From NCBI GenBank assembly GCA_043809365.1, contig JAZDDW010000027.1, positions 1 to 40,617 on the forward strand: a stretch of DNA of 40,617 bases, given 5' to 3'. The position numbers and the translations under genes were made by a program. Every line of letters starts with the position of its first letter. Positions within the stretch are counted from its first letter, which is position 1. This DNA comes from a bacterium. GTDB lineage: Bacteria; Patescibacteriota; Microgenomatia; UBA1400; UBA12108. The notes beneath the pieces were generated by a model that was given only the letters and a program-made list of their open reading frames with translations, was not told the origin of the DNA and made no database searches. This document shows positions 5,018 to 21,763 of this stretch, piece by piece.

Positions 5018-6763
5018 ATGAAAGTGATCAGAGAGGCGATAAAAAAGACCTTAATGGTCAATGATCAATGGCCAATGGTCGATTTTGTTGTCGAACATCC
5101 CAAGGAGGAGAGTCATGGGGACTACAGTAGCAATGTGGCGCTGATTTTGGCGAAACAGATAGGAAAGAATCCGCGGGAGTTGGCGGAAGCCATTGTAAAG
5201 CAGTGTCACAGTGACACGGTGTCACAGATATGGGAACGGGTGGAGGTGGCGGGAGCGGGATTTATCAATTTTTACCTGAAAAAAGAGTTTTTCCTGGCCG
5301 AAACGAAAAAAGCGATAGAGCCTGGATATGGGAAGAATGAAACTTTGAAGGGCAAAAAAATCATGGTCGAGTATACCGATCCTAACCCCTTCAAAGAAAT
5401 GCATATCGGGCACTTGATGAGTAATACGATTGGGGAGAGTCTGGCGAGGTTGCAAGAAGCCAGTGGGGCGGAAGTGAGGCGGGCGTGTTACCAGGGAGAT
5501 GTAGGGTTGCACGTAGCCAAGGCGATTTGGGGATGGCAGCGGAAAATGGACCAGGAGGGTAAAACGCTGGCTGACTTTAAGGGTCGGACCCTTAAAGTGA
5601 AGGCGAATTATCTGGGGCAGGCGTACGCCTACGGAGCCACAAAATACGAAACCGACGAAACGGCGAAATCAGAAATGAACGCCATGAACAAAGTGATTTA
5701 TGACAAGTCGGATGAAACGATAGATGAGTTGTACCAGGCTGGAAGGGAGTGGAGCCTAGAATATTTTGAGAGCATATACCTCCGGTTGGGGACCAAATTT
5801 GACGAGTATTTTTTTGAGAGCGAGGCGGGACCAGTGGGGCTCAAAGTAGTTGAGGAAGGTTTAGCAAAGAAGGTACTGGAAATAGGGGATGATGGGGCGG
5901 TGGTGTACAGAGGAGAGAAGGATGGACTTCATACTAGAGTATTTCGTAACAAACTGGGACTGCCGACATACGAGGCCAAAGATTTGGGGCTTGCCAAGAC
6001 GAAGTATGAAAGATACAAATATGATTTTTCCTATAACGTGACGGGGAACGAGATCACGGAATATTTCAAAGTGGTGTTGCGAGTGATGGAACAACTTTAT
6101 CCAGATTTGCGGGCGAAAACAACGCATATGCCCCACGGGATGATGAGGCTCACAACGGGCAAGATGAGCTCGCGAACAGGGAAGGTCGTGACGGGAGAAG
6201 GGCTCTTGAATGAGCTAAAAGTGGTGGTACTAACCAAGATGGGAGGGCGCGAGATAGGGGATAAAGATAAAGTGGCAGATATGATTGCGGTGGGAGCGCT
6301 CAAGTATAGTGTGCTCAAGCAGGCGATCGGGGGAAATATCGTCTATGAACCAGAGAAGATGACGAACCTGGAGGGAGACACGGGACCGTATCTGCAGTAT
6401 ACATTCGCAAGATGCTCGAGCGTCTTGCGAAAATCACAAATCTCAAACCCGCCTGCCGGACGGGCAGGTTCTCAAATTCTCAAATTGGGAGCATTACAAA
6501 GTTACGAACCTTGTAATACGGAAGAGCTGGCGATTTTGCGCTGGATTTATCGATATCCAGAAGTGGTATCCGAAGCTGGAGAAAAGATGGCCCCGCACCT
6601 CTTGGCTACGTACTTGTTTGAGTTGGCGCAAAGATTTAATACTTTTTACAATCAACACCAAATTGTGGGGGATGAAGGGCGGATATTGTTGACGAGTGCG
6701 GTGGCAAATGTGCTAAAGAGTGGACTGGGGTTGCTCGGGATCCAGGCTCCGGAGGAGATGTAA
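5018..6763 (+). CDS. argS: Arginine--tRNA ligase
   Basis: HGDYSSNVA, PNPFKEMHIGH (HIGH), KMSSRTG and GDTGPYLQYTFAR. Confidence 0.97.
   Translation: MKVIREAIKKTLMVNDQWPMVDFVVEHPKEESHGDYSSNVALILAKQIGKNPRELAEAIVKQCHSDTVSQIWERVEVAGAGFINFYLKKEFFLAETKKAIEPGYGKNETLKGKKIMVEYTDPNPFKEMHIGHLMSNTIGESLARLQEASGAEVRRACYQGDVGLHVAKAIWGWQRKMDQEGKTLADFKGRTLKVKANYLGQAYAYGATKYETDETAKSEMNAMNKVIYDKSDETIDELYQAGREWSLEYFESIYLRLGTKFDEYFFESEAGPVGLKVVEEGLAKKVLEIGDDGAVVYRGEKDGLHTRVFRNKLGLPTYEAKDLGLAKTKYERYKYDFSYNVTGNEITEYFKVVLRVMEQLYPDLRAKTTHMPHGMMRLTTGKMSSRTGKVVTGEGLLNELKVVVLTKMGGREIGDKDKVADMIAVGALKYSVLKQAIGGNIVYEPEKMTNLEGDTGPYLQYTFARCSSVLRKSQISNPPAGRAGSQILKLGALQSYEPCNTEELAILRWIYRYPEVVSEAGEKMAPHLLATYLFELAQRFNTFYNQHQIVGDEGRILLTSAVANVLKSGLGLLGIQAPEEM
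5053..5080 (+). repeat. AATGGYC heptamer tandem repeat x4, inside argS
   Basis: aatggtc aatgatc aatggcc aatggtc; same family at 19776-19808. Confidence 0.85.
5201..5227 (+). repeat. CAGTGWCA octamer tandem repeat x3, inside argS
   Basis: cagtgtca cagtgaca cggtgtca cag, encoding QCHSDTVS; near-identical copy at 20082-20105. Confidence 0.88.
5574..5598. repeat. REP-like palindrome (RAYT-associated family), inside argS
   Basis: ACTTTAAGGGTC-G-GACCCTTAAAGT with perfect 12-bp arms; the outer arms match the RAYT-flanking palindromes. Confidence 0.88.
6431..6486 (+). repeat. AAAT(T)CTC tandem repeat with a nested 21-nt CCTGCC-family element (6448-6468), inside argS
   Basis: aaatcac aaatctc aaa[cccgcctgccggacgggcagg]ttctc aaattctc aaatt. 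Confidence 0.9.
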
Positions 6764-11741: not shown

Positions 11742-11757
11742 GATATGGTAAGATACG

Positions 11758-11836
11758 GGGCTATTAGCCTGCCTGTCGGCAGACAGGCTTATTTGGTAGA
11801 GCACCGCACCTGCCTGCCGGCAGGCAGGTTCGCATT
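11758..11836 (+). pseudogene. 5' half of an outer tRNA-Ala(CGC), interrupted by two 20-nt palindromes
   Basis: Removing 11768-11787 and 11809-11828 gives GGGCTAT TA GCTT ATTTGGTA GAGC A CCGCA TTCGCAT. Confidence 0.8.
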
Positions 11837-11841
11837 AAAAA

Positions 11842-12078
11842 ATGTACTTTGTTTATATTCTCAAAAATTCTGAGAATTTCCTCTACAAGGGAATTACAGA
11901 TAATCTGGAACGACGTATTAGTCAGCATAATCATAACCAGTCGGCTGGTACTAGGGGTAAGGGGCCATGGAAATTGGTCTATAGTGAAATTCGTGCTAGC
12001 AGGTCTCTGGCAAGAATACGAGAAAAATATCTGAAATCTGGTGCGGGGAGAGAATTCCTTAAGTCGGTGATAAAATAA
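11842..12078 (+). CDS. Stand-alone GIY-YIG nuclease (UPF0213/Slx1-like, 78 aa)
   Basis: YFVYIL...YKGIT.NLERRISQHN...PWKLVYSE...REKYLKSGAGR. Confidence 0.9.
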   Translation: MYFVYILKNSENFLYKGITDNLERRISQHNHNQSAGTRGKGPWKLVYSEIRASRSLARIREKYLKSGAGREFLKSVIK

Positions 12079-12088
12079 CTTGTTGGTA

Positions 12089-12159
12089 GGGCTCGTAGTA
12101 TAGTGGGAGTACGGTACATTCGCATTGTACAGACGGGGGTCCGATTCCCCCCGAGTCCA
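12089..12159 (+). tRNA. tRNA-Ala(CGC), intact inner copy
   Basis: Cloverleaf: acceptor GGGCTCG/CGAGTCC with G3:U70, anticodon arm GTACA-TTCGCAT-TGTAC, T arm GGGGG/CCCCC. Confidence 0.92.
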
Positions 12160-12178
12160 CCTAGGCGTGTGATATGAT

Positions 12179-12283
12179 CGCATTCGCACCTGCCAAGGGC
12201 AGACAGACCTGCCTGCCGGCAGGCAGGTTGTAGATAGGGCGGGGTCTGCCTACGGCAGATAAATTCGAAACCGCCATGGTCCA
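12179..12283 (+). pseudogene. 3' half of the outer tRNA-Ala(CGC), interrupted by hairpin insertions
   Basis: Removing 12189-12227 and 12243-12263 gives CGCA TTCGCAT TGTAG ATAG GGCGG TTCGAAA CCGCC ATGGTCC A. ATGGTCC pairs with GGGCTAT at 11758, including G3:U70. Confidence 0.78.
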
Positions 12284-12313
12284 CCCGACCCAGATCAGTA
12301 TATTTGGAGATGA

Positions 12314-12553
12314 ATGAATATGAGAGTCACCTATAAAGAAGACGAATACGAAATGACAATGTGTGAAAGGATGTTATTTAAAAGAGGGGGCCTTGGGAAA
12401 GAAGAGGGTTGGAGAGCTGTGTTGTGTTCGACGGAGAATGATGGACGTGAACCACTATATTTTCCCCCAGTGTGGGATCCGGCTATGGGAACTAGAGATG
12501 AATTACTACTATATTTAGGTGCAAGCGGAGTTGAAGTTGGAGACATCCAATGA
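12314..12553 (+). CDS. Hypothetical protein (79 aa)
   Basis: GGAG RBS; ATGA overlap with the downstream peptidase. Confidence 0.55.
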   Translation: MNMRVTYKEDEYEMTMCERMLFKRGGLGKEEGWRAVLCSTENDGREPLYFPPVWDPAMGTRDELLLYLGASGVEVGDIQ

Positions 12554-13812
12554 AGTTTGATGTCAGCTATACCAAGTTGAAGAATGGGGTGAGAGTGCTC
12601 ACGGTGCCCATGGTGGGAGTGGAGTCGGTGACGGCGATGATCCTGGTGAAAACGGGATCAAGGAATGAAACTCTGGAGCAAGCGGGGATCTCCCACGTTT
12701 TGGAGCATATGGTGTTTAAGGGGACAAAAAAATATCCCAGTCCCCTGCATATTGCGGAGGCGGTTGATTCGATTGGGGCAGAGCAGAATGCGTTTACGAG
12801 CAAAGAATATACGGGATACTACATTACCAGTGCGGCGAAACACTTGGGACTAACCTTGGATATTCAGGCTGAGATGTTGACCAAGCCTCTGTTGCCCCAG
12901 GCAGACTTGGAGCGCGAGCGGGAGGTGATTGTGGAAGAAATCAATATGTACGAGGACCAGCCCATGGCTATGGCGGGAGAGTTATTTGAAAACTTGATGT
13001 ATGACGGATCCTCGATGGGAAGACTGATTATTGGGACAAAGGAAACGGTGCGGGGAACGAATGCAACTGATTTGCGAAAGTACATGGGAGAGTGGTACAG
13101 GGGGGGGAATGTGTTGGTGGTGGTGGCAGGAAAAATCTCAAATCTTAAACCCGCCTGCCGGACGGGCAGGTTCTCAAATTCTCAAATTGAGGAGAAATTT
13201 GGGGAAATGAGTGAAGGGCATATTTCTGGATATACAACGAGGGCTAGGTATGGAAAGTCGGAGGCGAGACACCAGAAAAAGAAAACCGAGCAGGCTCATT
13301 TTGTGATGGGAGTACCCGCGCTTCCCATGACAGATCCGAGGCGCTACGCCTTGTCGATCGCACAGGTCGTGCTGGGGGGGACGATGAGTAGCCGACTCTT
13401 TAACGAAATCAGGGAAAAACGGGGACTAGCTTATTATGTGCGAGCTGATTTGGATACTGCATATGACTGCGGATATTTGGCGGTGAGGTCGGGAGTCAAA
13501 CTGACAAAGCTGGGGGAGGCGATGGAAGTAGTCAAAGCCGAGATGCTGAGGTTGGGGGAAACCATCACCGTGGCGGAACTTAAGCGAGGACAGGACTACC
13601 TCCTAGGGAAGATGCCATTAACACTTGAGGATTCGATGGGGGTGGCCCAGTTTTTTGGGACTCGAACCTTGATACTTGACGAGGTTCGTCAGCCAGATGA
13701 GGTGGAGCGAGCCATCAAAGCGGTGAAAATAGGGGACGTAAGGGAAGTGCTGGAGGAATTGGTGAAGGAAGAATTAATCAGATCGGTCGTGGTAGGACCA
13801 AAAGCAAGCTAA
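12550..13812 (+). CDS. M16 family (insulinase/pitrilysin) zinc peptidase
   Basis: HVLEHMVFKGT (HxxEH), NAFTS and SRLFNEIREKRGLAY. Confidence 0.93.
   Translation: MKFDVSYTKLKNGVRVLTVPMVGVESVTAMILVKTGSRNETLEQAGISHVLEHMVFKGTKKYPSPLHIAEAVDSIGAEQNAFTSKEYTGYYITSAAKHLGLTLDIQAEMLTKPLLPQADLEREREVIVEEINMYEDQPMAMAGELFENLMYDGSSMGRLIIGTKETVRGTNATDLRKYMGEWYRGGNVLVVVAGKISNLKPACRTGRFSNSQIEEKFGEMSEGHISGYTTRARYGKSEARHQKKKTEQAHFVMGVPALPMTDPRRYALSIAQVVLGGTMSSRLFNEIREKRGLAYYVRADLDTAYDCGYLAVRSGVKLTKLGEAMEVVKAEMLRLGETITVAELKRGQDYLLGKMPLTLEDSMGVAQFFGTRTLILDEVRQPDEVERAIKAVKIGDVREVLEELVKEELIRSVVVGPKAS
13133..13188 (+). repeat. AAAT(T)CTC tandem repeat with a nested 21-nt CCTGCC-family element (13150-13170), inside the peptidase
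   Basis: Identical 21-mer and junction to the argS copy, read in a different frame (PACRTGR). Confidence 0.9.
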
Positions 13813-13950: not shown

Positions 13951-14421
13951 ATGACCATGCAAAGGACTGCCGTACTTGTAAAACCAGACGGATTACAGCG
14001 GGGGCTGATCGGGGAGATCATGCACAGGTTTGAACGGAAAGGGATGAAGCTCGTGGGGCTCAAGATGATGAGATTGTCAGATTCGCTCTTGGATACCTGG
14101 TACGCGCATCATAAAGAAAAATCATTTTTTACTGATCTGAAAGCGTTTATGACTTGGACCCCGATTGTGGCGATGGTGTGGGAAGGGCAGGAAGCAATCA
14201 GCGCGGTGCGCAAGATTGTGGGAGTAACTAAGGGGTACGAGGCGGAGGCGGGGAGCATTCGCGGAGACTTTGCCATGTCGGGGAGCCAAAACTTGATTCA
14301 CGCGTCGGATTCGCCGGAGACAGCGGAGAAAGAGATTGGCTTGATTTTTGCCCCAGAGGAAATTTTCCAGTACGAGACAGCGGAGGCATGCCTCATTTAT
14401 TCGGAGTTGGAGCGAAAATAG
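13951..14421 (+). CDS. ndk: Nucleoside diphosphate kinase
   Basis: KPDGLQRGLIGEI, GSIRGDF and NLIHASDS. Confidence 0.97.
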   Translation: MTMQRTAVLVKPDGLQRGLIGEIMHRFERKGMKLVGLKMMRLSDSLLDTWYAHHKEKSFFTDLKAFMTWTPIVAMVWEGQEAISAVRKIVGVTKGYEAEAGSIRGDFAMSGSQNLIHASDSPETAEKEIGLIFAPEEIFQYETAEACLIYSELERK

Positions 14422-14442
14422 AGCGAGCGAAGCGAGTCGAAG

Positions 14443-14506
14443 TGCCCCCACCAAGAATTGTCAGCCCAAGGCTGATCCGCCTAGGGCGGAAACTTGGACC
14501 TGAGAG
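14443..14506 (-). pseudogene. 3' half of an outer tRNA-Arg with a 30-nt double-hairpin insertion in the T loop
   Basis: Removing 14461-14490 (tcagcc-caa-ggctga plus tccgcc-tag-ggcgga) gives CTCTC AGGT CCAAG TTCAATT CTTGG TGGGGGC A. Confidence 0.75.
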
Positions 14507-14578
14507 TGTCCCCGGAAAGAATTGAACTTTCATCACAGGTTTAGGAAACCTGGGCTCTATCCGTTGAGCTACGAGGAC
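14507..14578 (-). tRNA. tRNA-Arg(CCT), intact inner copy
   Basis: Acceptor GTCCTCG/CGGGGAC, anticodon arm CAGGT-TTCCTAA-ACCTG, T arm GAAAG-TTCAATT-CTTTC. Confidence 0.93.
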
Positions 14579-14593
14579 TTTATTGTATTATAA

Positions 14594-14651
14594 CTCGGAA
14601 ACCTGCCTGCCGGCAGGCAGGCCTCTGTTCTATCCGTTAAACTATGGGAGC
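14594..14651 (-). pseudogene. 5' half of an outer tRNA-Arg(CCG), interrupted by the 20-nt palindrome (14602-14621)
   Basis: GCTCCCA TA GTTT AACGGATA GAAC A GAGG[20 nt]T TTCCGAG. GCTCCCA pairs with TGGGGGC at 14444-14450. Confidence 0.78.
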
Positions 14652-14675
14652 GTTAGGGCTATTTTAACTTATTTT

Positions 14676-14703
14676 AGTTTGATCGTGTAGAGATTGGGGA
14701 TGG
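14676..14703. repeat. 28-bp direct repeat, copy 1 (orphan PEGA-gene 3' end)
   Basis: AGTTTGATCGTGTAGAGATTGGGGATGG, identical to 15885-15912. Confidence 0.92.
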
Positions 14704-14768: not shown

Positions 14769-15899
14769 ATGCAAATACCCAGGATTTATGATGACATCGA
14801 GAAATTACTCGCGCCGGGGAAAGTGCTGGTGATATATGGCCCAAGGCAGGTGGGTAAAACGACCTTGGTCAAAAACTACCTGGAGAAAACCCAGTGGAAG
14901 TATCGACTAGATCAGGGTGACAACGTAGATTTACAGGAGACATTGGGATCGAGATCATTCTCCAAGGTATTACCAGTTGTAGAAGGATTGGAGTTGTATG
15001 TGATTGATGAGGCGCAAAAAATACCCCACGTTGGCGAGGTTTTGAAAATTTTGGTTGATCAACGGCCCGATTTGCGGATTATTGCAACGGGGTCTTCGTC
15101 TTTTGAGCTCGCGGACCAGGTGGGAGAACCACTGACAGGTCGTAAGCAGACGATTACCCTGTATCCTTTGGCACAAATGGAGCTGGTGCGAAAGTGGAAT
15201 CGGCATGAATTGGCGCAGAGGAAGACAGATTTTTTGGTATATGGAAGCTATCCGCGAGTTGTGATGGAAGAGAGGAAGAGCCAGAAGGAAGGGTTGCTGG
15301 CAGAGCTCGTGGGCTCGTATTTGTTTAAAGATGTTTTGTCGATGGAAAGAATCAAAGGAGCCAAGGTCCTGAAACAGATTTTACAATTACTGGCATATCA
15401 AATTGGATCGACGGTTTCGTACAACGAGATTGCGAACAAGATCTTGATCGACGTCAAGACAGTCGCGAGGTACTTGGATCTACTCGAGAAAACATTTGTC
15501 ATCACCTCGCTCCCAGGGTTTGGGCGCAATTTGCGAGAGGAAGTCACGAGCCAGAAGAAATATTATTTTTGGGATAACGGAGTTCGTAATGGGATTATTC
15601 AGCAGTTTAATGATTTGGACGTGAGGAATGATGTGGGGCAACTTTGGGAAAACTTTATTATGATCGAGCGAATTAAAAAACGAAGTTATAGTGCAATTCA
15701 AGCGAATATCTATTTTTGGCGGACACATACGCAAAAAGAAATTGATTTGGTGGAGGAGAGGGGAGGGAAATTGTTTGGATATGAAATTAAGTGGGGTGAG
15801 GATCAGGCGAAGCACAAGTCAGCCTGGCTCGCACAATATCCAGGCGAAGCTGAACTCTTGGTGATTAATCAGAAGAATTACTTGAGTTTGATCGTGTAG
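14769..15899 (+). CDS. AAA_14 family ATPase with DUF4143/PD-(D/E)xK-like C-terminus
   Basis: GPRQVGKT, IDEAQ, ATGSS, LTGR, WENF and EIDLV...YEIKW. Confidence 0.9.
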   Translation: MQIPRIYDDIEKLLAPGKVLVIYGPRQVGKTTLVKNYLEKTQWKYRLDQGDNVDLQETLGSRSFSKVLPVVEGLELYVIDEAQKIPHVGEVLKILVDQRPDLRIIATGSSSFELADQVGEPLTGRKQTITLYPLAQMELVRKWNRHELAQRKTDFLVYGSYPRVVMEERKSQKEGLLAELVGSYLFKDVLSMERIKGAKVLKQILQLLAYQIGSTVSYNEIANKILIDVKTVARYLDLLEKTFVITSLPGFGRNLREEVTSQKKYYFWDNGVRNGIIQQFNDLDVRNDVGQLWENFIMIERIKKRSYSAIQANIYFWRTHTQKEIDLVEERGGKLFGYEIKWGEDQAKHKSAWLAQYPGEAELLVINQKNYLSLIV

Positions 15900-15912
15900 A
15901 GATTGGGGATGG
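15885..15912. repeat. 28-bp direct repeat, copy 2
   Basis: Identical to 14676-14703; it contains the ATPase gene's stop codon. Confidence 0.92.
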
Positions 15913-15935
15913 TGCCTTCGGAAAACTGAATGCGG

Positions 15936-20932: not shown

Positions 20933-21763
20933 TTGCAAAAAGCTAAAGTATCGTCTAAACATAGTCAAGTTAGGTCGCAAAGAAGCAATGAAAAGGTGGA
21001 TAAACCCGTAGAAATCTTCGGTGTGACCATCTTTGGCACTCACAGACAAGAAGTGCTAAAGAAAATTGGGCTCCAGAGGAAAGATATGTTGCATGTGGCA
21101 ACGGTCAATCCCGAGTATGTGATGGAGGCGAGGCACAGCCCTGAATTTAGAGAAATTTTAACACATTGTTTGACGGTTGCTGATGGGCATGGAGTGGTGT
21201 GGGCATATCAAATCATAAATCACAAATTCCCTGCCTTGCCGGCAGGCAGGTCAAATTCTCAAATTGAAAGGATAAGTGGCGCCAGGCTGGTGGAGGAGAT
21301 CCTGAAGAGAGCTAACAAGAGGGGGGAGAAAGTGTTTTTGTTGGGAGCCAAGCCGGGAATTGCGGAGAAGGCGGCAACCGAGATGGCTAGACGATATCCG
21401 GGGGCGAGATATGCCTGGTTTGAGGGAGCGAGGACTGTGGCGGTAGAGGCGAGTGAGGAGGCGAGTATGACGATAGCCAAGATCAATGGGTTTGAGCCTG
21501 ACTACCTCCTCGTTGCGTATGGCTCTCCCTGGCAAGATATCTGGATAGAAGAGAATAGATCATATCTGCGGACTAGAGTAGCGATGGGGGTGGGGGGGGT
21601 ACTCGATGAGTGGGCAGGGGTGGTGGCAATTTGCCCCAAATGGTTAGATCGGCTAGGACTTAAGTGGGCATGGCGAGTAATCCATGAACCATGGAGGCTT
21701 TCAAGAGTACTAAAAGTGTTCCAATTTGCTACTCTGGTCTTGTACCATAAGTTAGTAGATTGA
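20933..21763 (+). CDS. WecB/TagA/CpsF family glycosyltransferase
   Basis: TVNPE, ADGHG, VAYGSPWQD, GVGG and EPWR. Start uncertain. Repeat insertion at 21210-21265 with a 21-nt palindrome at 21230-21250. Confidence 0.9.
   Translation: MQKAKVSSKHSQVRSQRSNEKVDKPVEIFGVTIFGTHRQEVLKKIGLQRKDMLHVATVNPEYVMEARHSPEFREILTHCLTVADGHGVVWAYQIINHKFPALPAGRSNSQIERISGARLVEEILKRANKRGEKVFLLGAKPGIAEKAATEMARRYPGARYAWFEGARTVAVEASEEASMTIAKINGFEPDYLLVAYGSPWQDIWIEENRSYLRTRVAMGVGGVLDEWAGVVAICPKWLDRLGLKWAWRVIHEPWRLSRVLKVFQFATLVLYHKLVD

What the first reader, a model, noticed from the sequence alone, without database searches (positions are those of the whole stretch)
14443..14651. Second nested tRNA: an intact tRNA-Arg(CCT) inside a split tRNA-Arg(CCG)
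Seen on the minus strand, in order: a 5' half (GCTCCCA...TTCCGAG, with the 20-nt palindrome in its anticodon stem), about 15 nt of spacer, a complete tRNA-Arg(CCT), and then immediately a 3' half (CCAAG-TTCAATT-CTTGG TGGGGGC A, with a 30-nt double hairpin in its T loop). The outer acceptor strands pair 7/7. The architecture matches the Ala locus 2.3 kb away but has no nuclease, which suggests a recurrent process rather than a one-off. Inner and outer tRNAs share the amino acid but not the anticodon, so CGG decoding needs another gene, wobble, or processing of the outer tRNA.
Basis: partly seen in the sequence, partly recalled or inferred. Interest (0 to 1): 0.85.

Follow-up and report, generated by a model that had tools for sequence, protein, structure and literature searches.

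The report
Spare tRNA inside a dead tRNA
A working arginine tRNA gene sits inside the broken remains of the older arginine tRNA gene it replaced, apparently the scar of a small mobile nuclease-plus-tRNA cassette that invades tRNA genes in these tiny groundwater bacteria.

Summary
The nested layout is real. An intact tRNA-Arg(CCT) (14507-14578, minus strand) lies between two halves of a second tRNA, and those halves carry a 20-nt palindrome and a 30-nt double hairpin. The outer gene is not tRNA-Arg(CCG). With the palindrome removed, its 5' half matches positions 1-35 of the intact tRNA-Arg(CCT) of relatives (35 of 35). Its last 26 bases also match (26 of 26). The break falls inside the anticodon, and the 'G' of 'CCG' is the first base of the insert.

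The outer gene is therefore the dead resident tRNA-Arg(CCT). The inner gene is a foreign allele (55 of 72 identical to the resident type) that arrived with its own TATAAT box.

Relatives G015 and G021 have the same layout with an 81-aa GIY-YIG nuclease gene between the 5' fragment and the inner tRNA. Three loci in this genome (Ala, Pro, Lys) have it too. A syntenic metagenome contig carries the same palindrome, junction and inner tRNA (115 of 116) joined to a different resident 5' end, and it has no 3' half.

Best reading: a nuclease-less relic of tRNA-gene replacement by a mobile nuclease-plus-tRNA cassette. Nothing supports splicing of the outer tRNA. I found no description of such cassettes in five literature searches.

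The parts
14661..14666 (-). TAAAAT, a -10-like hexamer 9 nt upstream of the outer 5' half: the resident tRNA promoter element
   Evidence: Read by eye. The same element precedes the intact tRNA-Arg(CCT) in relatives. The consensus scan found no full two-hexamer promoter on the minus strand.
14622..14651 (-). Outer 5' fragment, positions 1-30 of the resident 'type A' tRNA-Arg(CCT): acceptor strand, D arm and start of the anticodon stem
   Evidence: 30 of 30 identical to the intact tRNA of G001, G013, G021 and G023.
14602..14621 (.). Perfect 20-nt palindrome (pal20), inserted between positions 30 and 31 of the outer tRNA. It belongs to a dispersed family.
   Evidence: 21 copies in the genome within 3 edits. 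Also found in many relatives. The same copy sits at the same position in L099.
14597..14601 (-). TTTCC, positions 31-35 of the outer tRNA. The resident gene ends inside its anticodon, after CC.
   Evidence: Identity to type A ends at position 36.
14579..14596 (-). 18-nt left end of the insert, with TATAAT at 14592-14587, 8 nt upstream of the inner tRNA. Probably the last codons and stop of a deleted GIY-YIG gene overlapping the -10 box of the cassette tRNA.
   Evidence: It resembles the nuclease 3' end plus -10 box in G015 and G021 (short match, weak). 17 of 18 identical in L099.
14507..14578 (-). Inner, intact tRNA-Arg(CCT) of foreign 'type C': the working gene
   Evidence: ARAGORN; Rfam 65.1 bits. 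55 of 72 identical to type A and 53 of 72 to type B. Identical copy in L099, and in L098 as far as that contig reaches.
14491..14506 (-). Outer 3' fragment, part 1: remnant of the anticodon stem 3' strand, the variable loop, the T stem 5' strand and the first two T-loop bases
14461..14490 (.). 30-nt double hairpin inserted in the T loop of the outer tRNA. It is a dispersed repeat.
   Evidence: In 4 groundwater and sediment runs, many unrelated contigs cover only about 14458-14494, with loose ends on both sides. Copies occur in G042, G024, G039 and G058.
14443..14460 (-). Outer 3' fragment, part 2: rest of the T loop, T stem 3' strand, acceptor 3' strand and discriminator A
   Evidence: With part 1, the last 26 bases are 26 of 26 identical to type A. 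The 55 nt at 14442-14496 are 100% identical in G006.
13951..14421 (+). ndk, the convergent neighbour used as synteny anchor and divergence yardstick
   Evidence: PF00334, E 1.3e-50. 72.5-82% DNA identity to relatives over regions of 411-548 nt that include ndk.

Best explanation
The locus is the scar of a gene replacement. The resident tRNA-Arg(CCT) gene ('type A', the allele found intact at this site in relatives) was broken inside its anticodon. The break was made by a small cassette carrying a complete, foreign tRNA-Arg(CCT) ('type C') with its own -10 box.

The inner tRNA is now the working AGG decoder. It would be cut out of the transcript by the ordinary tRNA-end processing enzymes. The outer halves are dead DNA and have also picked up two dispersed hairpin elements.

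By inference from sister loci, the cassette originally also held a roughly 80-aa stand-alone GIY-YIG nuclease gene between the 5' fragment and the tRNA. In this model the nuclease cuts tRNA genes. Repair from a cassette-bearing donor, with crossovers inside the tRNA sequence, copies in nuclease plus spare tRNA, so the host never loses the tRNA function. The nuclease gene later decayed and was deleted here, leaving about 10 nt of its end.

Shown: the outer gene is a broken CCT gene, the inner gene is a foreign allele, and palindrome, junction and inner tRNA travel together. Inferred: the nuclease does the cutting, and it was once present at this locus.
For: 1. Outer gene is the resident CCT gene. 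The 5' half without the palindrome is 35 of 35 identical to the intact type A tRNA-Arg(CCT), and the last 26 bases are 26 of 26 identical. Type A is intact at the syntenic ndk-linked site in same-genus G001. The intact allele also appears in run X7.
2. Inner gene is foreign. It is 55 of 72 identical to type A and 53 of 72 to type B. Among the 16 family-f1 genomes whose tRNA-Arg(CCT) I read, 7 have type A, 7 have type B, and only G000 and G015 have C-like genes, both as nested inner copies. Types A and B are mixed within genera g1 and g5.
3. The same architecture occurs with the nuclease present. G015 has type A 5' fragment, 81-aa GIY-YIG ORF, C-like tRNA, type A 3' fragment. G021 has type B fragments, 81-aa GIY-YIG ORF and type A tRNA. 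The ORFs match Pfam GIY-YIG, and Tyr, Tyr, Arg, His and Glu columns are invariant in the 6-protein alignment.
4. There is a decay series. The full nuclease gene is present in G015 and G021. Only its last roughly 30 nt (encoding the ...LLKRLGLK end) remain upstream of the tRNA in G016, G020 and G023. About 10 nt remain here.
5. The cassette moves as a unit. Metagenome contig L099 is syntenic (ndk 82%, other genes 70-78%). It has a type B 5' end, then the same palindrome, TTTCC, the spacer and an identical type C tRNA, 115 of 116 identical to 14506-14621, and no 3' half.
6. It recurs. 3 of 6 GIY-YIG matches in this genome sit between a tRNA 5' fragment and the full tRNA (Ala, Pro, Lys). Of 36 loci that encode relatives of the Arg-locus nuclease, 8 have a same-strand tRNA 7-79 nt downstream and 6 have one 43-161 nt upstream. 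Those 36 include G015 and G021 again.
Against: - There is no nuclease gene at this locus. The claimed remnant is a match of only about 9 of 11 bases.
- The nucleases are minimal, Slx1-like UPF0213 proteins with no DNA-binding domain. PMC1564403 describes that group as mostly vertically inherited. No cleavage activity or target site is known.
- In G006 the replacing tRNA plus promoter is inverted and has no nuclease trace, which simple homing followed by deletion does not predict.
- The 55-nt 3' half is 100% identical between G000 and G006, while the 548-nt alignment that contains it is 76.8% identical. A dead remnant should not be that conserved unless it was recently transferred or has some use.
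- All 13 outer 5' fragments I read carry hairpin inserts in or near the anticodon arm. The model does not explain this.
- The promoter scan found no full sigma-70-type promoter on the tRNA strand.
Confidence: 0.7

Rival explanations
1. The cassettes move, but the GIY-YIG protein is not the driver. The hairpin elements (pal20, the 24-nt hairpins, the double hairpin) are the recombination or transposition sites, comparable to REP elements with their transposase or to integron attC sites. Promoter-plus-tRNA units are moved by hairpin-specific machinery, and the nuclease gene is a frequent passenger or a structure-specific helper.
For: - All 13 outer 5' fragments read have hairpins at or near the junction.
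- In G021 and at the Ala locus, the same hairpin plus tRNA piece flanks the nuclease-plus-tRNA unit as a direct repeat.
- In L099 and G000, pal20 lies inside the shared near-identical unit (14506-14621), next to its left boundary.
- G000, L099 and G006 have tRNA cassettes without a nuclease gene.
- The nucleases are Slx1-like, and Slx1 is a structure-specific nuclease (PMC1564403).
Against: - 15 of 21 pal20-family copies in this genome lie in long open frames far from any tRNA or nuclease gene, so the hairpins spread on their own.
- No transposase or integrase was seen beside the cassettes in the regions I read, though I did not search for one systematically.
- Different cassettes carry unrelated hairpins.
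Confidence: 0.2
2. There was no mobile element. A local tandem duplication of tRNA-Arg genes was followed by decay, deletion and random hairpin insertions, and this happens to look nested.
For: Tandem tRNA arrays are common in bacteria. The outer halves are plainly decaying.
Against: - The inner gene is only 55 of 72 identical to the outer type, and C-like alleles were otherwise found only in other families or as nested copies.
- The two halves are two ends of one gene, not two genes.
- The same junction sits in a different resident allele in L099.
- The architecture recurs at four other tRNA species with a nuclease gene.
Confidence: 0.05
3. One reading: the outer gene is a functional split tRNA-Arg(CCG). 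Its halves are joined, and its three inserts removed, at the RNA level.
For: - Acceptor strands pair 7 of 7.
- After in-silico removal of all three inserts, a 72-nt cloverleaf can be drawn.
- No other tRNA-Arg(CCG) was found in the assembly, although CGG makes up 12.8% of Arg codons in long open frames.
Against: - The 'CCG' is a junction artefact, because identity to intact CCT genes ends at position 36.
- ARAGORN reads the joined sequence as Gly(TCC) in another register.
- Three separate inserts would need removal, and Rfam finds no intron family in the window.
- L099 has the same 5' junction and no 3' half.
- tRNA-Arg(TCG) is present and can read CGG by ordinary U-G wobble (textbook knowledge).
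- ACG and GCG are also missing from the assembly, so absence of one tRNA is uninformative.
Confidence: 0.02
4. The layout is an assembly artefact: a chimeric join of reads from strains that carry different tRNA-Arg alleles.
For: The genome is a 63-contig metagenome-type assembly. tRNA alleles A, B and C co-occur in related populations. No independent data cover the 3' junction.
Against: - The 5' junction is reproduced in an independent contig from a different organism (L099) and in a contig of run X5.
- G015 and G021 show the same nested plan in other assemblies.
- G006 has the identical 3' half beside ndk.
Confidence: 0.03

Closest known systems
Phage T4 SegB, a free-standing GIY-YIG homing endonuclease in the tRNA gene cluster (PMC2330249; abstract and passages read)
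   Same: A GIY-YIG nuclease gene sits among tRNA genes. SegB recognises a conserved tRNA-gene motif (the T-psi-C stem-loop), cuts tRNA genes of nuclease-less relatives, and spreads itself together with neighbouring tRNA genes.
   Different: - SegB is a phage protein whose gene is cloned on a 687-bp fragment; it was not compared with these proteins here. These are roughly 80-aa minimal Slx1-like proteins in bacterial chromosomes.
- In the passages I read, the SegB homing product is described as replacement of the tRNA region, with loss of the T2L markers; no nested or fragmented tRNA gene is mentioned.
- Here the target's own fragments stay on both sides of the nuclease-plus-tRNA unit.
- The break lies in the anticodon arm (class 1), not only at the 3' end.
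Mobile endonuclease ORFs of fungal mitochondria that carry a foreign gene end (Allomyces atp6; Glomus atp6, atp9, cox2, nad3). PMC3630166, passages read.
   Same: An endonuclease ORF inserts into a gene and brings a foreign copy of the displaced part. The native part stays downstream as an unexpressed remnant. The remnant matches close relatives and the inserted copy is divergent, which is the same identity pattern as here.
   Different: Those elements replace only the C-terminal coding part of protein genes, in organelles, mostly with LAGLIDADG enzymes. Here a whole RNA gene with its own promoter element is supplied, in a bacterial chromosome, with a minimal GIY-YIG enzyme. The 'class 2' elements noted in passing (full tRNA, nuclease gene, then a duplicate of the last 14-18 nt of the tRNA) are the closer structural match.
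Split, intron-containing or permuted tRNA genes of archaea and some algae; group I introns in bacterial tRNA anticodon loops (recalled; PMC4090602 seen only in a search listing)
   Same: A tRNA gene is interrupted in or next to the anticodon loop.
   Different: Those genes yield a functional tRNA through a defined splicing signal. Here no such signal was found, part of the anticodon loop is missing, and the 3' half is dispensable.
Prokaryotic Slx1-like / UPF0213 stand-alone GIY-YIG proteins (PDB 1zg2, 1ywl; PMC1564403, passages read)
   Same: The cassette nucleases match these by sequence profile (1zg2 E 2.4e-13, 1ywl E 3e-9). They are the same minimal single-domain form.
   Different: That family has no assigned function and was described as mainly vertically inherited and repair-related. 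Here its members sit in patchy, decaying cassettes wedged into tRNA genes.
Rickettsia palindromic elements and REP-type repeats (recalled, not looked up)
   Same: Short dispersed palindromes occur in RNA genes and, without breaking the frame, in protein-coding frames.
   Different: The sequences are unrelated, and no associated transposase was identified here. I did not test membership.

Membership tests
Functional split or intron-bearing tRNA gene | Anticodon loop complete once the insert is removed | tested here: not met
   Identity to intact orthologues ends at position 36 and resumes at about position 41. ARAGORN reads the joined sequence in a different register, as Gly(TCC).
Functional split or intron-bearing tRNA gene | Recognisable splicing signal (group I or II intron, or bulge-helix-bulge motif) | tested here: not met
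   The Rfam gathering-threshold scan of the whole window gave 6 matches, all tRNA. I did not scan for a bulge-helix-bulge motif separately.
Functional split or intron-bearing tRNA gene | Both halves kept wherever the insert is present | tested here: not met
   L099 has the same 5' junction and inner tRNA but no 3' half. G006 has the 3' half but no 5' half.
Free-standing homing endonuclease cassette (T4 Seg-like) | Endonuclease ORF at the locus | tested here: not met
   None lies between 14443 and 14651. It is present at the homologous loci of G015 and G021 and at the Ala, Pro and Lys loci of this genome.
Free-standing homing endonuclease cassette (T4 Seg-like) | Patchy presence among close relatives, with decayed copies | tested here: met
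   Full nuclease gene in G015 and G021; 3'-end remnants in G016, G020 and G023; none in G001, G004 and G010. Alleles A and B are mixed within genera.
Free-standing homing endonuclease cassette (T4 Seg-like) | Co-conversion of flanking target sequence | tested here: met
   14506-14621 is 115 of 116 identical in L099, against 82% for ndk. The resident-specific 5' end differs (type A versus type B), which places a crossover inside the tRNA.
Free-standing homing endonuclease cassette (T4 Seg-like) | Site-specific cleavage of the nuclease-less allele | not testable with these tools
   This needs biochemistry.
Free-standing homing endonuclease cassette (T4 Seg-like) | Nuclease of the homing-endonuclease clade, with a DNA-binding domain | tested here: not met
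   The ORFs are 78-88 aa and hold the catalytic domain only. The best solved relatives are UPF0213 proteins 1zg2 and 1ywl. Only 2 of 6 weakly match the NCBIfam group I intron endonuclease model (best E 9.1e-5).
Gene-part replacement by a mobile endonuclease ORF (Allomyces atp6 type) | Native remnant matches close relatives, and the inserted copy is divergent | tested here: met
   Remnant: 35 of 35 and 26 of 26 identical to same-genus G001. Inserted tRNA: 55 of 72.
GIY-YIG nuclease superfamily (proteins at the sister loci) | Pfam GIY-YIG match with conserved Tyr, Tyr, Arg, His and Glu | tested here: met
   PF01541, E 2.5e-16 for the Ala-locus ORF. 6 matches in the genome. Invariant Y5, Y15, R25, H29 and E61 in alignment A1. 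The assignment of these columns to catalytic roles is recalled from I-TevI.
Dispersed palindromic repeat (REP- or RPE-like) for pal20 and the double hairpin | Many copies in unrelated contexts within and between genomes | tested here: met
   21 pal20-family copies in G000 and exact copies in many relatives. Double-hairpin-only contigs with loose ends occur in 4 of 4 runs laid.

The most novel reading that the evidence does not exclude
Candidate-phyla-radiation bacteria harbour an undescribed class of selfish element. It consists of a minimal Slx1-like GIY-YIG nuclease gene, one or more hairpin modules, and a complete spare tRNA gene with its own promoter element.

The element homes into the anticodon arm of the matching chromosomal tRNA gene. 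Because it brings its own replacement tRNA, it needs no splicing. It leaves nested tRNA-in-tRNA scars and drives horizontal turnover of tRNA alleles across genera.

The hairpins, present in all 13 outer 5' fragments read, would be either the structure that this DNA-binding-domain-less nuclease recognises or marks that protect the leftover fragments from being cut again. This would give the orphan UPF0213 family its first biological role.
Probability: 0.45. Interest if true: 0.8.

Novelty: new variant of a known kind. Interest (0 to 1): 0.62.

Why it matters
If the reading holds, tRNA genes in these reduced genomes are not stable housekeeping loci. They are targets of a selfish element that avoids harming its host by carrying a full spare of the gene it destroys. 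Homing elements are known to solve this problem with introns, inteins or partial gene ends, and a whole spare gene would be a further solution.

Three consequences follow:
- It explains why tRNA-Arg alleles do not follow taxonomy in this family.
- It warns annotators that tRNA fragments and 'split' tRNAs in such genomes are scars, not exotic genes.
- It links the function-less UPF0213 / bacterial Slx1-like nucleases to a testable activity on tRNA-gene DNA and hairpins.

For this particular locus the practical message is modest. It holds one ordinary working tRNA-Arg(CCT) plus debris.

Tried and rejected
- ARAGORN with introns allowed gave only spurious chimeras between neighbouring tRNAs and did not find the outer gene.
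- Partial removal of inserts: none of the 6 variants recovered the outer gene. Three gave only the inner tRNA, two gave nothing, and one gave a spurious Ala with an intron.
I re-sent the two Arg-locus nucleases as alignment A2.
- Sequencing runs: no RNA holder was listed, and no run held more than 0.12 of the sampled words. Expression therefore could not be examined. The laid runs were contigs only. Parts without cover mean nothing.
- The first metagenome pattern, spanning spacer and inner tRNA start, found nothing. The second, inside the inner tRNA, found L098 and L099.
- The promoter scan found no two-hexamer promoter on the tRNA strand. The -10 boxes I cite were read by eye.
- Literature: five searches found no paper describing nuclease-plus-tRNA cassettes nested in tRNA genes, and none linking GIY-YIG genes to tRNA genes in these bacteria. 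The paper on insertions in the rRNA genes of candidate-phyla-radiation bacteria (PMC11270868) has zero occurrences of 'tRNA' in its main text. Subscription journals are not covered.
- I considered, from hand pairing, that the outer Ala halves might not be one gene (acceptor 4 of 7). I did not pursue it.
- I did not test whether the relatives normally have a tRNA-Arg(CCG).
Full report
WHAT IS THERE. On the minus strand of 14443-14651 the sequence reads, in order:
- 14651-14622: 30 bases that look like the start of a tRNA.
- 14621-14602: a perfect 20-nt palindrome.
- 14601-14597: TTTCC.
- 14596-14579: an 18-nt spacer holding TATAAT.
- 14578-14507: a complete tRNA-Arg(CCT). ARAGORN calls it, and the Rfam tRNA model scores it 65.1 bits against a gathering score of 29.
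- 14506-14491: 16 bases.
- 14490-14461: a 30-nt double hairpin.
- 14460-14443: 18 bases ending in an acceptor 3' strand and discriminator A.

THE ORGANISM. The window is contig C27 of an 818,764-base, 63-contig assembly rated 95.8% complete. Named relatives found with a protein from a sister locus are Candidatus Woesebacteria and other candidate-phyla-radiation bacteria. Partial matches to the stretch come from groundwater and sediment metagenomes.

THE OUTER GENE IS AN OLD tRNA-Arg(CCT), NOT CCG. I searched 60 relatives and the window's own genome with the 301-base region, and 51 of the 61 genomes had a match. ARAGORN on the 30 fetched loci found an intact tRNA-Arg in 28 of them: 26 with anticodon CCT, one TCT and one CCG.
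- One allele, which I call type A, is intact in G001 (same genus), G013, G016, G018, G019, G021 and G023.
- With the palindrome removed, the outer 5' half is identical to type A for positions 1-35. The first difference is at position 36, the third anticodon base.
- With the double hairpin removed, the last 26 bases of the outer 3' half are identical to type A.
- In G001 the intact type A gene sits at the syntenic site, with the same upstream flank (88.9% over 45 nt) and ndk downstream (78.6%).
- A contig in run X7 joins 14460 directly to 14622 through 24 bases that complete an intact type A gene with anticodon CCT (table 5c).

So the two halves are the ends of one resident gene broken inside its anticodon. 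About five positions (36-40) are missing.

When I removed all three inserts in a script, ARAGORN drew a 72-nt cloverleaf but in another register, as Gly(TCC). No partial removal recovered the outer gene.

THE INNER GENE IS FOREIGN. The inner tRNA (type C) is 55 of 72 identical to type A and 53 of 72 identical to type B, a second allele. Type B is found intact at the syntenic site in same-genus G004 and G010 and as an intact gene in G008. In G006 it sits at this site in inverted orientation.

Among the 16 genomes of the family whose tRNA-Arg(CCT) I read, 7 carry A, 7 carry B, and only G000 and G015 carry C-like genes. In both of those the C-like gene is the inner copy of a nested locus. A and B are mixed within genus g1 and within genus g5. 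tRNA-Arg alleles therefore do not follow taxonomy here.

THE SAME PLAN WITH A NUCLEASE GENE.
- G015: type A 5' fragment with a 24-nt hairpin replacing positions 22-33; then an 81-aa ORF; then a C-like tRNA-Arg(CCT) directly after the stop codon; then a type A 3' fragment with hairpins.
- G021: the same plan, with type B fragments outside and type A inside.
- The ORFs are GIY-YIG nucleases. Pfam PF01541 scores E 2.5e-16 for the homologous ORF at the Ala locus of this window, with further family-wide hits. The Tyr, Tyr, Arg, His and Glu columns are invariant in a six-protein alignment.
- Their stop codon overlaps the -10 box of the tRNA.
- G016, G020 and G023 keep only the last 30 or so bases of this ORF in front of an otherwise ordinary tRNA-Arg(CCT).
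- In the window, the spacer's first bases resemble the last codons plus -10 box of that ORF. The match is only about 9 of 11 bases, so it is weak.

I read this as a decay series: full gene, 3' stub, near-complete deletion.

THE CASSETTE TRAVELS AS A UNIT. An exact-match scan of metagenome contigs with a 32-base piece of the inner tRNA found two contigs. L099 is syntenic with the window: ndk is 82% identical and other genes 70-78%. At the tRNA site it reads: type B positions 1-30, the same 20-nt palindrome at the same position, TTTCC, the spacer with one difference, and an identical type C tRNA followed by CCA. Then ndk follows, with no outer 3' half.

Window 14506-14621 is 115 of 116 identical to L099. 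So palindrome, junction, spacer and inner tRNA have been placed into two different resident alleles (A here, B there). The left crossover lies in the stretch that A and B share. That is the signature of gene conversion from a cassette donor. It also shows that the 3' half is dispensable, which removes the case for a functional split tRNA.

RECURRENCE.
- In this genome, a BLAST of all 39 ARAGORN tRNAs against the genome found exact extra fragments of tRNA-Lys(TTT) (a 5' 28-mer and a 3' 26-mer flanking the full gene) and of tRNA-Pro(TGG) (a 5' 23-mer).
- Reading those loci shows a 5' fragment with hairpin, a GIY-YIG ORF, then the full tRNA. The Ala(CGC) locus in the window (about 11757-12290) has the same plan.
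- That accounts for 3 of the 6 GIY-YIG matches in the genome. One of the others lies in a 428-codon open frame and was not examined further.
- In another family, G042 has the same plan at tRNA-Ser(TGA), with a version of the double hairpin in the anticodon loop.
- Of 36 loci that encode relatives of the Arg-locus nuclease (G015 and G021 are among them), 8 have a same-strand tRNA 7-79 nt downstream: Arg-CCT twice, Trp three times, Cys, Ile-TAT and Arg-TCG. Six have one 43-161 nt upstream. Twenty-two have no ARAGORN tRNA within 170 nt.
- Of 29 small GIY-YIG loci sampled from the family, 7 are adjacent to a tRNA.

The association is strong but not universal.

WHAT KIND OF NUCLEASE. A profile of the six cassette proteins matches the solved UPF0213 proteins 1zg2 (E 2.4e-13) and 1ywl (E 3e-9), and faintly an SLX1 homologue. 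PMC1564403 (passages read) places these bacterial proteins in the Slx1 family as the minimal form of the domain, without auxiliary domains, and regards them as mainly vertically inherited. They are therefore not members of the classical homing-endonuclease clade. Calling them homing enzymes is an inference from genomic behaviour, not from family membership.

HOW IT MOST LIKELY WORKS.
- Shown: the outer gene is a broken resident CCT gene. The inner gene is a foreign CCT allele with its own -10-like box. The left part of the composite is shared almost exactly with a distant relative that has a different resident allele.
- Inferred: a nuclease-plus-tRNA cassette invaded the resident gene after a break in its anticodon arm. 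Repair used tRNA-sequence homology on both sides, leaving the target's ends as flanking fragments. The supplied tRNA kept the cell viable without any splicing. The nuclease gene then decayed and was deleted.
- Today the locus should produce one tRNA-Arg(CCT), cut from a transcript that may start at either -10 box.
- My confidence is about 0.9 that the outer gene is a dead CCT gene replaced by an imported allele, and about 0.6 that the GIY-YIG protein was the agent. Overall I give 0.7.

WHAT DOES NOT FIT.
1. All 13 outer 5' fragments that I read carry one or two hairpins in or next to the anticodon arm. These are Arg, Ala, Pro and Lys in G000; Arg in G015 and G021; Ser in G042; L063, L066, L077, L088 and L097; and L099. 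In G021 and at the Ala locus the same hairpin flanks the cassette on both sides. Neutral accumulation seems unlikely. The hairpins may be targets, protective marks or recombination sites.
2. The 55-nt 3' half with its double hairpin is 100% identical in G006, while the 548-nt alignment containing it is 76.8% identical. That points to recent transfer or to a function.
3. In G006 the replacing type B tRNA with its promoter is inverted and has no nuclease trace.

COMPARISON WITH KNOWN SYSTEMS. It works most like two known things.
- Phage T4 SegB is a GIY-YIG homing enzyme that recognises the T-psi-C motif of tRNA genes and spreads itself with neighbouring tRNA genes (PMC2330249).
- Mobile endonuclease ORFs of fungal mitochondria insert into a gene, bring a foreign copy of the displaced end and leave the native end as a silent remnant (PMC3630166).

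It differs in four ways. A whole RNA gene is supplied. It sits in a bacterial chromosome. The enzyme is a minimal Slx1-like protein. Hairpin modules are always present. Five literature searches found no description of it, though supplements were closed and subscription journals are not covered. I rate it a new variant of a known kind.

The assembly has Arg tRNAs with anticodons CCT, TCT and TCG only. CGG makes up 12.8% and CGT plus CGC 45% of Arg codons in long open frames. At least one CGN-reading tRNA is therefore missing or hidden, and the absence of CCG carries no weight. tRNA-Arg(TCG) can read CGG by ordinary wobble (textbook knowledge).

VERDICT. The locus itself is one working tRNA plus debris. 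The process that made it appears undescribed and is worth a dedicated survey and a nuclease assay.

Noticed in passing
window 6448-6468, 13150-13170, 21228-21250; also C24:4233-4255, C26:11520-11542, C34:2149-2170, C53:2053-2074 and others: The 20-nt palindrome family has 21 copies in the genome. 15 lie inside stop-free frames of 141-666 codons without breaking them, for example in the M16 peptidase ORF at 12550-13812. This resembles the palindromic elements known from Rickettsia protein genes. Only the peptidase frame was confirmed as a real gene.
   Followed up: partly
window 11757-12290: Ala locus: a tRNA-Ala(CGC) 5' fragment with two palindromes, a 78-aa GIY-YIG ORF (11842-12078), a full tRNA-Ala(CGC) (12089-12161), then a 3' fragment with three hairpins. 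By hand, the outer acceptor strands pair only 4 of 7, so the two fragments may come from different rounds of invasion.
   Followed up: partly
G000 C2:28176-28632 (L061) and C43:13172-13571 (L033): Two further nested or flanked loci. tRNA-Lys(TTT) lies between overlapping Lys fragments whose anticodon arm is replaced by a 16-nt hairpin, with an 83-aa GIY-YIG ORF. tRNA-Pro(TGG) is preceded by a 23-nt exact 5' fragment, the 20-nt palindrome and an 85-aa GIY-YIG ORF.
   Followed up: partly
L043, L050, L055, L058; G000 C15:28590-28960 (L054): A second architecture. In L043, L055 and L058 a full tRNA (Gln, Gly-CCC, Glu) is followed by a conserved terminal repeat, a roughly 92-aa GIY-YIG ORF, the inverted copy of that repeat, and a duplicate of the last 14-18 nt of the tRNA. 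In L050 (Ser-GCT) the contig ends inside the ORF, so only the first three parts are seen. This resembles the fungal mitochondrial gene-end replacement. The copy in this genome at C15 sits after a sequence that no tRNA finder recognised.
   Followed up: partly
window 14669-14703 and 15879-15935, flanking 14769-15899: The AAA ATPase / DUF4143 gene is flanked by direct repeats of the end of the upstream PEGA-domain gene. It is absent from the syntenic contig L099, so it looks like a separate insertion between that gene and the tRNA.
   Followed up: no
window 14442-14496 versus L003 (G006) 1501-1555: The outer 3' half with its double hairpin is 55 of 55 identical between two species, while the 548-nt alignment that contains it and ndk is 76.8% identical. 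In G006 it lies next to an inverted type B tRNA-Arg(CCT).
   Followed up: partly
window 14461-14490; G024 contig C88 (five copies within 1.3 kb): The 30-nt double hairpin is itself a dispersed repeat. Many unrelated contigs in all four runs laid cover only it, and G024 has a cluster of copies.
   Followed up: no
whole genome G000: The tRNA set looks incomplete or partly hidden. There is no tRNA for Cys or Trp, and no Arg(ACG or GCG) although CGT plus CGC make up 45% of Arg codons. Odd calls include 'Ser(ACT)' at C18:9759-9848 (also in G019, L050), Ile(TAT) at C49:30561-30636, and a weak tRNA-like hit at C56:22308-22377 that only Rfam and relaxed ARAGORN report. Some missing genes may be disrupted by cassettes or hairpins.
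   Followed up: no
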